Of a stretch of 5,492 bases of DNA, positions 1 through 1,431 are shown piece after piece; position 1 is the stretch's first letter; every line of letters begins with the position of its first letter. Both the position numbers and the translations under genes were made by a program. This DNA comes from Escherichia phage lillemer, in the sequence record MN850599.1; one strand, 5' to 3'. Under the pieces are notes generated by a model, which saw nothing but the letters and a program-made list of their open reading frames with translations, ran no database searches and had not been told where the DNA came from.

Positions 1-845
1 CCATGTTCCGGTACGAAGAAGCGAGGAACAGAGTGACGGAATGTTTGCTGGACGCGGCCAGAGAATTGACCTAATGAAGTTTGGTCAGTGCCGTCGATAT
101 CATAGCCAGAAGCCCAGAAGTTAGAGCGCATAAGCAGAAGAGGACGATTATCAGCGTCATAGTGAGTTTTGCCACCGAACGAAGAGATTACGTCACGGTA
201 ACGTTGCATGAAGTAGTCACGCTCTTGGTCAGTGTGAAGTTGGGCGTAGGCAGCTTGAAGACCCATGATATCAATGGAGGTAGCGCCAGTAGTCATAGCG
301 CGGGTAATTTCCGTTTGAGGAGGAAGAGGCGCAGACCAGATGTTTTTTAAGTGACAGCAGCGGAAGCCGTGACGACGGTCGTCGTCGTTTAAGTTAGATG
401 GGTTTGCCTCAGTACGGTCAGCCATCCAAGGAGCTTTGAAGTAGTTATTGTAAATATTGAGATAGCCTTGGTGCAGGAACTTGGGAACCTTGCCGTCAGC
501 AGAAGGGATTACACCAAGATAAGAAGCACTGTCGACATATTCGCCAGTGGTTACAGGGTTAAGAGATGCGGCAGCAACGCCAGTTTTCATAAATTGAATC
601 CATGCATCGCCATAGATATGACGGTGTGGAATGTAGAAAGTGAAGTAATCAACAGTTGAGTCAATAGCCAGGCCGCGACGCAGAGGGGATAAGCGTAAAG
701 CACCAACAGCGTCAAGCTGGAAAGAATCACCAGCGATAACAGGGGTCCATGATGCGACTTTAAGGCGACCAATAGCGCCAGTGTTGAAGACCAGATGTGA
801 TAAATCAATTGCATCACGAGAGGCAGAAGTTTGAACATTAGACAT
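1..845 (-). CDS. F: Major capsid protein F, N-terminal segment (partial; starts at ATG 845..843 and runs off the window start)
   Basis: ATG at 845..843 preceded by AAGGA about 8 nt upstream. Hand translation gives MSNVQTSASRDAIDLSHLVFN..., resembling recalled phiX174 F N-terminus (MSNIQTGAERMPHDLSHLGF). Codons at the window start (plus 3..35) read ...HSVPRFFVPEH, which abuts the start of the C-terminal segment at the other window end. Not in the ORF track, consistent with a frame that has no stop before the window edge. Only the two ends were translated by hand, not the interior. Confidence 0.85.
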   Translation of the reverse strand, partial: MSNVQTSASRDAIDLSHLVFNTGAIGRLKVASWTPVIAGDSFQLDAVGALRLSPLRRGLAIDSTVDYFTFYIPHRHIYGDAWIQFMKTGVAAASLNPVTTGEYVDSASYLGVIPSADGKVPKFLHQGYLNIYNNYFKAPWMADRTEANPSNLNDDDRRHGFRCCHLKNIWSAPLPPQTEITRAMTTGATSIDIMGLQAAYAQLHTDQERDYFMQRYRDVISSFGGKTHYDADNRPLLLMRSNFWASGYDIDGTDQTSLGQFSGRVQQTFRHSVPRFFVPEH

Positions 846-863
846 TTTATATCCTTAAATAGA

Positions 864-881
864 GTGGGACCGTGGTCCCAC
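864..881 (-). terminator. J-F intergenic stem-loop (7-bp GC-rich stem GTGGGAC/GTCCCAC, 4-nt loop) followed by T-rich tract; candidate T_J-like terminator or mRNA-stabilising hairpin
   Basis: Viral strand reads TAA(J stop)-CCTTCTAT-GTGGGAC-CACG-GTCCCAC-TCTATTTAAGGATATAAA-ATG(F). Inverted repeat seen directly. A GC-rich hairpin occupies the same J-F position in phiX174 (recalled). Confidence 0.55.
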
Positions 882-889
882 ATAGAAGG

Positions 890-976
890 TTAGAATTGTG
901 AGCCGCCAACGTACCAGAGGCGGGAGCCTTTCTTGTTGCCAGCGGAGCCGCGGCGATATGATTTGCCTTTAGCCAT
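890..976 (-). CDS. J: Small basic DNA-binding/packaging protein J (28 aa)
   Basis: Hand translation from ATG 976..974: MAKGKSYRRGSAGNKKGSRLWYVGGSQF, stop TAA at 892..890. Very basic, C-terminal RLWYVGG motif matches recalled phiX174/G4 J. Start overlaps D stop as TAATG. AAGGA SD about 10 nt upstream. Confidence 0.85.
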   Translation of the reverse strand: MAKGKSYRRGSAGNKKGSRLWYVGGSQF

Positions 977-1256
977 TACATGATTCCTTGTGCACGGAGT
1001 TTAGCGCGGATGTTGTCTTCGGCACCTTCGAGGACGTCTTTACAGCCGGCGCGGACACGGAGAACGAAAGCGAAGAGTTCGGAAGCCTTAACTGGGGATT
1101 CAACGCCATTGACGATGTTTTCAGTAAATTCGGCTCCTTCCATGATGAGACAAGCGGTCTGGGTGTTGACCGGATGAACGTAGTAAGCGATAACAGCAGA
1201 AATAAATTCAACAGGAGCAGGAAAGCGAGGATACCCGACAAAGTCCAGTGTTCCAT
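969..1256 (-). CDS. E: Lysis protein E (95 aa), embedded in gene D in a different frame
   Basis: Track ORF 969..1313, trimmed to internal ATG at 1256..1254 (GAGG about 11 nt upstream). Product MEHWTLSGILAFLLLLNLFLLLSLTTFIRSTPRPLVSSWKEPNLLK... has an N-terminal hydrophobic helix and an RP(L)VSSWK segment like recalled phiX174 E. Lies wholly within D (+ J start) in an alternative frame, as in phiX174. Confidence 0.85.
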   Translation of the reverse strand: MEHWTLSGILAFLLLLNLFLLLSLTTFIRSTPRPLVSSWKEPNLLKTSSMALNPQLRLPNSSLSFSVSAPAVKTSSKVPKTTSALNSVHKESCNG

Positions 1257-1431
1257 ATACGCAGGCCTCGACAGCGCGGCGGGCGCGGGAGCGGTCAGTA
1301 GCAATCCAGACACGGTCGCCAGTTAAGAATTCGAAGTCGTCTTCGGTAAGGTCGAGGACGGATGAGGCTTGAATCATTTTGATAGAAGCGATTGCAGTTT
1401 GAAAGGCTACAGCAGATTCGTTGGAGTTCAT
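976..1431 (-). CDS. D: External scaffolding protein D (151 aa)
   Basis: Track ORF 976..1431. Strong similarity to recalled phiX174 D (ASIKxIQASxVLDLTEDDF, VWIATDRSRARR, YGTLDFVGYPRFPAPVEF, YYVHPVN, ACLIMEGAEFTEN). ATG 1431..1429 overlaps C stop (ATGA). AAGGA SD about 9 nt upstream. Confidence 0.93.
   Translation of the reverse strand: MNSNESAVAFQTAIASIKMIQASSVLDLTEDDFEFLTGDRVWIATDRSRARRAVEACVYGTLDFVGYPRFPAPVEFISAVIAYYVHPVNTQTACLIMEGAEFTENIVNGVESPVKASELFAFVLRVRAGCKDVLEGAEDNIRAKLRAQGIM

What the first reader, a model, noticed from the sequence alone, without database searches (positions are those of the whole stretch)
969..1256. Lysis protein E has Leu at the position of phiX174 Pro21, and carries His3 and Phe19
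E codon 21 is CTG (plus 1194..1196), in the motif NLFLLLSL where phiX174 E has SLLLPSLL. As I recall, Pro21 in the phiX174 E transmembrane helix is required for lysis (MraY inhibition, SlyD dependence), and R3H and L19F are the Epos substitutions that relieve SlyD dependence; this E naturally has H3 and F19. The Pro-versus-Leu difference corresponds to a synonymous third-position change in overlapping D codon 79 (GCT Ala), so D would not constrain it. This could mean a different mode of MraY engagement, a SlyD-independent E, or a weak or inactive lysis gene.
Basis: partly seen in the sequence, partly recalled or inferred. Interest (0 to 1): 0.6.

Follow-up and report, generated by a model that had tools for sequence, protein, structure and literature searches.

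The report
Lysis protein E lacking "essential" Pro21
This small phage's lysis protein really lacks the membrane-helix proline thought indispensable in phiX174, and so does a whole diverse clade of lytic relatives that conserve the altered helix tightly, so the proline rule is not universal.

Summary
Gene E (window 969-1256, minus strand, 95 aa) has His3, Phe19 and Leu21 (CTG, 1194-1196). Base 1195 is the synonymous third base of D codon 79.

Leu21 is not a sequencing error. The same helix, LFLLLSLT, occurs in 7 GenBank phages: Lilledu, Lilleto, Lilleput, Lilleen, MG1, SECphi17 and Salmonella PJNS002. It also occurs in about 20 metagenome or SRA contigs. Of 570 matching phage records, 562 keep the Pro21 version almost unchanged.

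Compared with G4, this clade carries P21L, S22L, L23S and I25T. About half of it, including this window, also carries P29R. Every one of these changes is silent in D.

Silent D sites vary freely outside the helix across 21 haplotypes (49/57 and 52/66). Inside E codons 9-28 only 5/20 vary, and none vary in codons 18-25 (p about 1e-6). The Pro-less helix is therefore under purifying selection.

These phages form plaques. Best reading: a working MraY-directed lysis protein with a remodelled, probably unkinked, inner half of its helix. His3 and Phe19 are ordinary G4-type residues. MraY targeting and SlyD dependence were not tested. No record annotates this E, and no held paper mentions it.

The parts
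969..1256 (-). Gene E, the lysis protein: 95 codons plus stop, in the +1 frame inside gene D, ending 7 nt beyond the D stop codon
   Evidence: ORF and translation. PHROG 1472 (lysis) match with E=2.9e-21 over residues 1-91. Ungapped alignment to the E chains of 8G01 and 8G02. When D is shuffled among synonymous codons, this frame stays open for 90 or more codons in only 4% of trials.
976..1431 (-). Gene D, the external scaffolding protein (151 aa), which hosts E
   Evidence: Pfam PF02925 match, E=1.2e-80. The D protein aligns without gaps across Bullavirinae.
1266..1269 (-). Shine-Dalgarno-like GAGG, 10-13 nt upstream of the E start codon (ATG at 1254-1256)
   Evidence: Read directly from the sequence. 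The motif is conserved in all E-bearing relatives aligned.
1173..1232 (-). E codons 9-28, the core of the transmembrane helix (ILAFLLLLNLFLLLSLTTFI)
   Evidence: AlphaFold2 predicts a helix over residues 6-30, with mean pLDDT 94 for residues 11-20 and 86 for 21-30. The Kyte-Doolittle hydropathy maximum lies at residues 6-24. Only 5/20 silent D sites vary here across 21 haplotypes, against 101/123 in the flanks.
1182..1205 (-). E codons 18-25, LFLLLSLT: the remodelled segment, invariant in all 21 Leu21-type haplotypes. It replaces LLLPSLLI (phiX174 and the G4 isolate) or LFLPSLLI (G4 reference).
   Evidence: P21L, S22L, L23S and I25T are all C/T transitions at D third positions.
1194..1196 (-). 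E codon 21, CTG Leu (CCG Pro in all other Bullavirinae genera examined). Base 1195 is the third base of D codon 79, GCT Ala.
1200..1202 (-). E codon 19, TTT Phe (the Epos L19F residue). It is coupled to Ser78 in D, the equivalent of phiX174 D A79S.
   Evidence: and PMC4825663. Phe19 is also present in the G4 reference and in an ID11-like contig (L001).
1248..1250 (-). E codon 3, CAC His (the Epos R3H residue)
   Evidence: His3 is also natural in G4, ID11, ID18 and ID21/WA13-like E.
1170..1172 (-). E codon 29, CGG Arg (CCG Pro in Pro21-type E and in the PJNS002-like half of the Leu21 clade). It removes the second helix-end proline and adds a positive charge on the cytoplasmic side.
1206..1208 (-). 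E codon 17, AAT Asn (AGT Ser in nearly all other E proteins). This is a minor polymorphism, silent in D (GAG to GAA).
   Evidence: Absent from the 7 GenBank relatives but present in two ENA contigs, L184 and L185.

Best explanation
The feature is the phage's single lysis gene, an orthologue of phiX174/G4 gene E. It belongs to a second, naturally occurring allele class of the transmembrane helix.

How it most likely works:
- E is translated from the D message in the +1 frame, from its own GAGG and ATG.
- It inserts N-out/C-in through one N-terminal helix.
- The periplasm-proximal half of the helix (residues 3-16 and 18) is identical to the ID21 E seen bound to E. coli MraY in PDB 8G01. This half most likely docks in the same MraY groove, blocks lipid I synthesis and causes lysis.
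- The cytoplasm-proximal half (residues 19-29) has been rebuilt. LFLPSLLITFIP became LFLLLSLTTFIR, so the helix has no proline.
- The helix is probably straighter and its uncharged stretch shorter (ending at residue 28 instead of 32), with Ser23, Thr25 and Thr26 as new polar positions.
- The Pro21 requirement measured in phiX174 and ID52 E therefore depends on sequence context. In this background the co-occurring substitutions (S22L, L23S, I25T, on top of the G4-type F19 and T26) make Leu21 acceptable.

Shown here: gene structure, homology, allele distribution and purifying selection.
Inferred: membrane topology, MraY as target, and the compensation mechanism.
For: 1. Homology and gene structure.
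- PHROG 1472 (lysis) match, E=2.9e-21, full length.
- Ungapped alignment to the E chains of 8G01 and 8G02.
- Conserved GAGG and ATG.
- An open frame of this length is unexpected by chance (4% of synonymous shuffles of D).

2. Leu21 defines a clade.
- 7 GenBank phages carry the helix DNA at 100% identity.
- Metagenome contig L050 carries it.
- Every contig recovered through D proteins 85-100% identical to the window's carries it: L164-L185, from many independent SRA or ENA samples.

3. Purifying selection acts on the new helix.
- Across 21 distinct haplotypes, D third positions vary at 49/57 sites upstream of E and 52/66 sites under E codons 29-94.
- Only 5/20 vary under codons 9-28, and 0/8 under codons 18-25 (Fisher p=7.8e-7 and 3.4e-6).
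- SECphi17 and PJNS002 differ at about 40-50% of silent D codons in the flanks, yet share a 62-nt identical block that exactly covers the helix.
- The Pro21 helix shows the same footprint between genera: 0/19 silent differences against about 57% in the flanks for G4 versus phiX174.

4. The few changes tolerated inside the new helix are mostly conservative: I9T, A11V, S17N and T26M, plus one L14P in a single contig.

5. The phages are viable lytic isolates that form plaques on E. coli K-12 (PMC7552041). SECphi17 is used routinely in plating assays.

6. No alternative lysis gene is apparent. The only other long hydrophobic ORF (587-883, minus strand) is interrupted by stops in PJNS002, which shares the Leu21 helix.

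7. AlphaFold2 gives a longer and more confident helix for the window E (residues 6-30; pLDDT 94 and 86 for residues 11-20 and 21-30) than for G4 E (residues 3-27; 86 and 67). This is weak support for loss of the break at residue 21.

8. S22L, one of the four changes, has already appeared in an evolved phiX174 isolate (EF380012).
Against: - No functional data exist for this allele. MraY inhibition, topology and SlyD dependence are inferred from homology.
- P21A abolishes lysis in two Pro21-type E proteins, so compensation is assumed, not shown.
- The C-terminal domain is divergent. Pfam PF04517 scores 19.7 bits, below the 25-bit cutoff.
- Conservation of silent D sites could in principle reflect another constraint on that stretch, such as RNA or DNA structure or D translation. 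I did not test this. The footprint coincides with the E helix in both allele classes, which argues against it.
- AlphaFold2 monomer models with a 7-sequence alignment and mean pLDDT of 56-58 say little about helix kinks.
- Most extra clade members are assembled contigs, not isolates.
Confidence: 0.75

Rival explanations
1. Attenuated timing allele. E still inhibits MraY, but the Pro-less helix is intrinsically weaker. It is tolerated or favoured because it delays lysis and raises burst size. The expression-raising residues His3 and Phe19 keep it above threshold.
For: - P21A is a loss-of-function change in related E proteins.
- R3H and L19F raise the rate of E synthesis in phiX174 (PMC4825663). 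Both residues are fixed in the whole Leu21 clade.
- Phe19 and Thr26 are shared with the G4 reference, the Pro21 type closest to the Leu21 helix (4 of 52 nt differ).
Against: - A merely tolerated defect would not explain invariance of codons 18-25 across 21 haplotypes. The specific replacement residues are conserved, which points to a defined interaction surface.
- His3 and Phe19 also occur with Pro21 in G4, so they are not specific compensators.
Confidence: 0.12
2. Different engagement or different target. The rebuilt inner half of the helix binds MraY in a distinct geometry, possibly insensitive to known mraY resistance alleles. Or it has shifted to another envelope-synthesis target or another chaperone dependence.
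For: - Four to five substitutions cluster in the cytoplasm-proximal half of the helix, including loss of both prolines.
- The juxtamembrane and C-terminal regions are divergent, with Pfam below threshold.
- There are two separately constrained helix alleles, and no intermediate was found among 570 phage records and about 29 clade members.
Against: - Residues 3-16 and 18 are identical to ID21 E in the MraY-E-SlyD structure.
- The SSWK motif and much of residues 37-53 are retained.
- The hosts are E. coli and Salmonella, as for Pro21 phages, so there is no obvious reason for a change of target.
Confidence: 0.1
3. E is decaying or non-functional in this lineage, and lysis is achieved in some other way.
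For: - Loss of a residue reported to be essential.
- E is not annotated in any record of the clade.
- One 780-nt ENA contig (L184) has a stop at E codon 33.
Against: - Strong purifying selection on the helix.
- The frame is open for 88-97 codons in 28 of 29 genomes or contigs, although the C-terminal halves have diverged.
- The start signals are conserved.
- No alternative conserved lysis ORF was found.
- The missing annotation reflects gene callers skipping embedded genes. B, K, J and A* are missing from the same records.
Confidence: 0.03
4. Sequencing or assembly error at base 1195.
For: None.
Against: The same base is present in 7 GenBank genomes from Denmark, China and elsewhere, and in about 20 independent contigs. 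It is accompanied by three or four further linked substitutions.
Confidence: 0

Closest known systems
phiX174 lysis protein E (MraY inhibitor; PDB 8G02)
   Same: - Embedded in gene D in the +1 frame.
- An N-terminal transmembrane helix followed by a basic, Ser/Pro-rich tail.
- Shared W4-T5-L6, the LAFLLLL motif and SSWK.
- Full-length match to the same PHROG lysis family.
   Different: - About 40% identity outside the helix.
- Residues 19-29 read FLLLSLTTFIR instead of LLPSLLIMFIP, so there is no Pro21 and no Pro29.
- 95 aa instead of 91.
- The C-terminal Pfam domain is below threshold.
G4 / ID11 E (Gequatrovirus), the nearest Pro21-type allele
   Same: - Residues 1-20, 24 and 26-28 are the same as the G4 reference E, apart from Asn17.
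- His3, Phe19 and Thr26 are shared.
- 53-57% identity overall.
   Different: P21L, S22L, L23S and I25T, plus P29R in this window. All are D-silent changes at sites that are frozen in every Pro21 genus.
ID21 E in the MraY-E-SlyD ('YES') complex, PDB 8G01
   Same: Residues 3-16 and 18 are identical. The alignment is ungapped through residue 62.
   Different: The inner half of the helix and the juxtamembrane segment differ. Whether the complex forms with this E is unknown.
phiX174 Epos mutants (E R3H, L19F; Bernhardt et al. 2002)
   Same: The window E has His3 and Phe19. Phe19 is coupled to the same D change (Ala to Ser) that is described for phiX174 pos5.
   Different: Here the residues are ancestral G4-lineage states, not selected suppressors. 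Their effect on E synthesis or SlyD dependence in this background is untested.
Engineered Pro21 substitutions (phiX174 E, Witte et al. 1997; ID52 E P21A)
   Same: Same position, and a non-proline residue.
   Different: Those are single substitutions and are non-lytic. Here Leu21 is natural, fixed across a clade and accompanied by S22L, L23S and I25T.

Membership tests
Bullavirinae lysis protein E (Microvir_lysis PF04517 / PHROG 1472) | Encoded in the +1 frame wholly or almost wholly inside gene D, with its own ribosome-binding site and ATG | tested here: met
   E is at 969-1256 and D at 976-1431, both on the minus strand. GAGG lies 10-13 nt upstream of the ATG. The offset from the D start is 175 nt, as in ID2 and ID18.
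Bullavirinae lysis protein E (Microvir_lysis PF04517 / PHROG 1472) | Significant full-length sequence similarity to known E proteins | tested here: met
   PHROG 1472 match, E=2.9e-21, residues 1-91. phmmer against 8G02 and 8G01 E gives E about 3e-9. The best database E protein is 58% identical.
Bullavirinae lysis protein E (Microvir_lysis PF04517 / PHROG 1472) | Pfam PF04517 (C-terminal domain) at or above the gathering score | tested here: not met
   19.7 bits against a cutoff of 25 (E=7.8e-4, residues 36-73).
Bullavirinae lysis protein E (Microvir_lysis PF04517 / PHROG 1472) | A single N-terminal transmembrane helix | tested here: met
   AlphaFold2 helix at residues 6-30 with pLDDT 86-94. 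Uncharged stretch at residues 3-28, with the Kyte-Doolittle maximum at 6-24. Topology was not tested.
Bullavirinae lysis protein E (Microvir_lysis PF04517 / PHROG 1472) | Conserved Pro21 in the helix, reported as required for lysis | tested here: not met
   Leu21 (CTG). No Pro in residues 1-31.
Bullavirinae lysis protein E (Microvir_lysis PF04517 / PHROG 1472) | Helix sequence held under purifying selection, seen as frozen silent sites in D | tested here: met
   5/20 variable sites against 101/123 in the flanks, p=7.8e-7, but around a different consensus sequence.
Bullavirinae lysis protein E (Microvir_lysis PF04517 / PHROG 1472) | Inhibits MraY (blocks lipid I synthesis; suppressed by mraY alleles or by MraY overproduction) | not testable with these tools
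   Only indirect support: the outer half of the helix is identical to that of ID21 E in 8G01.
Bullavirinae lysis protein E (Microvir_lysis PF04517 / PHROG 1472) | Dependence on the host chaperone SlyD | not testable with these tools
The putative SlyD-binding tail is only moderately conserved.
Epos-type (slyD-bypass) E alleles | His at position 3 and/or Phe at position 19 | tested here: met
   His3 and Phe19 are present. The Epos definition comes from PMC4825663. The same residues occur naturally in G4.
Epos-type (slyD-bypass) E alleles | Plates on slyD hosts through a raised rate of E synthesis | not testable with these tools
   Requires plating or expression assays.

The most novel reading that the evidence does not exclude
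The Leu21-type helix (LFLLLSLT, with no proline in the membrane span) is a second, structurally distinct solution for inhibiting MraY. It would be a straight helix making different contacts near the active-site side of the enzyme. It could therefore differ in sensitivity to known mraY resistance alleles and in SlyD dependence. On this reading Pro21 is one of two alternative architectures, not a mechanistic requirement.
Probability: 0.3. Interest if true: 0.75.

Novelty: new variant of a known kind. Interest (0 to 1): 0.6.

Why it matters
Protein E is the model 'protein antibiotic'. Pro21 has been treated as its invariant, essential feature since 1997, and it is used to rationalise the bent helix seen in the MraY-E-SlyD structure.

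A diverse, strongly conserved natural clade without Pro21 shows that the requirement depends on context. The clade includes SECphi17, a phage already used in many laboratories. It supplies a ready-made set of four or five co-varying substitutions for dissecting how the helix engages MraY. This bears on the design of E-derived peptides and MraY inhibitors.

It also exposes an annotation gap. Gene E, along with other embedded genes, is missing from every GenBank record of this clade that I inspected. No Leu21-type E protein turned up in the large protein collections.

Tried and rejected
1. phiX174 mutagenesis preprint (10.64898/2026.07.25.740675). P21L is a single-ORF change there and should have a measured fitness. 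The held supplementary tables are truncated: the amino-acid table stops within gpD, and the nucleotide table is sorted as text and cut before position 629. No value could be read.

2. Key papers not held. Orta et al. 2023, Tanaka & Clemons 2012, Chamakura & Young 2019 and Bernhardt et al. 2000 are not in the library. Contact-level statements about the complex rest on secondary citations and on my memory.

3. Metagenome scan. Only 1 of 120 matches, L050, was a real microvirus. The same pattern gave only chance matches in IMG/VR. A specific 32-mer found nothing in IMG/VR or in the genome collection.

4. Alternative lysis gene. The 98-aa hydrophobic ORF at 587-883 (minus strand) was rejected because it is interrupted in PJNS002, ID2, ID18 and alpha3.

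5. Sequencing error. Rejected.

6. Short-patch recombination as the reason PJNS002 and the Lille-type phages share the helix. Not needed, because the identical block coincides with the helix footprint that is also frozen in Pro21 phages. Not formally excluded.

7. AlphaFold2 monomers. They gave only weak information. Complex prediction with MraY and SlyD is not possible with these tools.

8. Profile search of 1.84 billion representative proteins. It returned only Pro21-type E, mostly chimeric reads from the phiX174 sequencing spike-in.

9. Unidentified record. One phage-collection record differs by 6 or more of 52 nt from both helix types. I could not identify it.

Full report
**What the window is**

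The 5492-nt window is a complete Bullavirinae (phiX174-like) genome read on the minus strand. Its nearest relatives are Escherichia phages Lilledu (98.1%), Lilleto, Lilleput, MG1, Lilleen and SECphi17 (93.5%). Where the records name a host strain, it is E. coli K-12 MG1655; the MG1 record gives only E. coli. The next nearest relatives are only about 80-85% identical. The isolation paper describes five such phages from Danish wastewater as an outlying group of gequatroviruses (PMC7552041). The gene order is the usual F, G, H, A(B, K), C, D(E), J.

**Checking the observation**

- E occupies 969-1256 on the minus strand. It is 95 aa long and reads MEHWTLSGILAFLLLLNLFLLLSLTTFIRSTPRP.... D occupies 976-1431.
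- Codon 21 is CTG (1194-1196), codon 3 is CAC and codon 19 is TTT.
- E proteins of phiX174, G4, ID11-, ID52-, ID2-, ID18-, WA13/ID21- and alpha3-like phages align without gaps and all have Pro at position 21. So do the E chains of the solved MraY-E-SlyD complexes 8G01 and 8G02.
- Base 1195 is the third base of D codon 79 (GCT here, GCC elsewhere), so the change is silent in D.
- The window E has no proline before residue 32.

R3H and L19F are indeed the Epos substitutions. L19F is coupled to D A79S, and both raise the rate of E synthesis (PMC4825663, quoting Bernhardt et al. 2002). The window D has the equivalent Ser. Pro21 is reported as required: P21A abolishes lysis by ID52 E, and Witte et al. 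1997 showed the requirement for phiX174 E (PMC11126076). It is described as conserved across the family (PMC9311611; PMC11812184).

His3 and Phe19 are not unusual, however. The G4 reference E has both, with Pro21 (P0002). His3 also occurs in ID18 and ID21.

**Leu21 comes as a package and marks a clade**

Relative to the G4 reference E, the window carries P21L, S22L, L23S and I25T, plus P29R and S17N. All of these fall at second positions of E codons, which are third positions of D codons, and all are silent in D.

The helix DNA is 100% identical in seven GenBank phages: the six Lille-type phages and Salmonella phage PJNS002.

I probed the phage collection with 52 nt of the Pro21-type helix. 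Of 570 matching records, 545 are identical, 17 differ by 1-2 nt and 8 differ by 6 or more nt. Seven of those 8 are the Leu21 phages, and one I could not identify.

I then looked up contigs encoding D proteins 85-100% identical to the window's. This gave 22 more loci from NCBI, ENA and Logan assemblies. Two of them are the GenBank Lilleto and Lilledu records, and the other 20 are independent contigs. Every one carries the Leu21-type helix, as does metagenome contig L050.

Sub-types within the clade:
- TTFIR: the Lille type, including the window.
- TMFIR: L168 and L169.
- TTFIP: PJNS002-like, found in many sequencing runs.
- TMFIP: L180.
- L183 combines a phiX-like N-terminus (WTLWDTL) with the Leu21 helix.
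- L167 has an extra Pro14.

About half of the haplotypes retain Pro29 at the end of the helix. The window's half has Arg29 and so has no helix proline at all.

**Is the Pro-less helix functional?**

E overlaps D, so silent D sites report selection acting on E.

- Between Pro21 genera, silent D codon differences are 0/19 under E codons 10-28. In the flanks they are 47/82 for G4 versus phiX174 (p=1e-6).
- The Leu21 clade shows the same footprint around its own sequence. SECphi17 versus PJNS002 gives 1/19 against 36/89 (p=0.003), with a 62-nt identical block that exactly covers the helix.
- Across 21 distinct Leu21 haplotypes, D third positions vary at 49/57 sites upstream of E and at 52/66 sites under E codons 29-94. 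Only 5/20 vary under codons 9-28, and 0/8 under codons 18-25 (p=7.8e-7 and 3.4e-6).
- Between the two allele classes the helix differs at 5-7 of 18 silent codons, no less than the flanks do.

So there are two separately constrained helix alleles, and I saw no intermediates.

PJNS002 and the window are as far apart in the D flanks as the window is from G4: 0.169 versus 0.128 upstream of E, and 0.281 versus 0.238 in the E tail. The allele has therefore been held in quite different genetic backgrounds.

Other supporting points:
- The E frame is open for 88-97 codons in 28 of 29 genomes or contigs. A synonymous shuffle of D leaves it open for 90 or more codons in only 4% of trials.
- The phages form plaques. 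SECphi17 is a standard assay phage.
- The only other long hydrophobic ORF (587-883, minus strand) is broken in PJNS002 and is not a candidate lysis gene.

**Most likely mechanism**

The outer half of the helix (residues 3-16 and 18) is identical to that of ID21 E in 8G01. The start signals and the SSWK segment are retained.

I therefore read this as an MraY-directed E whose cytoplasm-proximal half of the helix has been rebuilt. There is no kink-forming proline. New Ser23, Thr25 and Thr26 appear. In the window's subgroup, Arg29 ends the uncharged stretch at residue 28 instead of 32.

AlphaFold2 monomer models are compatible with this but weak. The window E gives a helix at residues 6-30 with pLDDT 94 and 86 for residues 11-20 and 21-30. 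G4 E gives a helix at 3-27 with pLDDT 86 and 67.

That Ser and Thr residues can bend helices, and that a straight shorter helix could place the juxtamembrane segment where a kinked longer one does, are inferences from general knowledge. They are not results obtained here.

S22L alone has arisen in an evolved phiX174 isolate (EF380012), so at least one of the steps is accessible.

**What remains untested**

MraY inhibition, SlyD dependence, lysis timing and the structural pose are all untested. The tail is divergent, with Pfam PF04517 at 19.7 bits, below the 25-bit cutoff. The frozen silent sites could in principle reflect some other constraint, although the footprint matches the E helix in both allele classes.

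**Novelty**

- E is not annotated in any Leu21-type GenBank record I inspected.
- The closest E in a 5.8-billion-protein collection is 58% identical and has Pro21.
- A profile search of 1.84 billion representative proteins found only Pro21-type E.
- Searches of the held literature for the Lille-type phage names and for P21L returned no paper that discusses this E allele.

This is a new variant of a known kind. It is a natural, conserved exception to the Pro21 rule, and it is available in a widely distributed laboratory phage.

Noticed in passing
window 1206-1208 (-), E codon 17: Asn17 (AAT) replaces the almost universal Ser17, and the change is silent in D (GAG to GAA). It is absent from the 7 GenBank relatives. 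It recurs in two ENA contigs of the PJNS002-like branch (L184, L185), so it is a recurrent polymorphism and not private to this genome.
   Followed up: partly
L019-L023, L022, L027 (GenBank records of Lilledu, Lilleto, Lilleput, Lilleen, MG1, PJNS002); L024 (SECphi17): None of these records annotates gene E. The embedded or small genes B, K, J and A* are also missing, and SECphi17 has no annotation at all. As a result, Leu21-type E did not appear in either protein database search.
   Followed up: yes
L163 (EF380012.1, phiX174 isolate 3C90), E codon 22: This phiX174 isolate (3C90, apparently an experimentally evolved line) carries E S22L (SLLLPLLLIMF). This is one of the four substitutions that define the Leu21-type helix.
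   Followed up: partly
L167 (Logan SRR20950850 contig), E codons 1-30: This Leu21-type E reads MAHWTLLDILVFLPLLSLFLLLSLTTFIR. It has a proline at position 14 instead of 21, seen in a single contig. It could be an assembly error or a relocated helix proline.
   Followed up: no
L184 (ENA ERZ27284527, 780-nt contig): This Leu21-type E has a stop at codon 33, leaving the N-terminus plus helix only. It is linked to a Gln-to-Leu change in D (NIQTAC to NILTAC). It may be an error in a low-coverage assembly or a natural truncated E.
   Followed up: no
L028 (Vibrio phage vB_VpP_WS0699, D gene 522-974): In this distant D-bearing microvirus, the E frame starts in an E-like way (MELLTWSEWLAFLLRLSL) but stops after 18 codons. 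These Vibrio phages appear to lack an intact E.
   Followed up: no
window 587-883 (-): A 98-aa, very hydrophobic ORF overlaps the 5' part of F in another frame. The frame is open in the Lille-type phages and in G4/ID11, but broken by stops in PJNS002, ID2, ID18 and alpha3. It is probably a by-product of the coding sequence of F.
   Followed up: yes
L050 (OBLN01002562.1, 5539 nt) and L183 (ENA ERZ1305919, 5442 nt): There are signs of mosaicism in the clade. The A/B/K/C region of L050 is 11.7% from the window and 12.7% from PJNS002, while its D/E region is nearly Lille-type. L183 joins a phiX/ID2-like E N-terminus (WTLWDTL) to the Leu21 helix.
   Followed up: partly
phage collection: One record matches the 52-nt helix probe at only 80-90% identity to both the Pro21 and the Leu21 versions. 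It could be a third helix type, a recoded synthetic phiX174, or a record containing ambiguous bases.
   Followed up: partly
L006 (IMGVR_UViG_2534682327_000003): This IMG/VR 'viral genome' is phiX174 with an amber codon at E codon 7 (MVRWTL*). It looks like an E-amber laboratory phiX174 strain, so probably a reagent contaminant. Most E-like hits in the representative protein library are likewise chimeric reads from the phiX174 sequencing spike-in.
   Followed up: no
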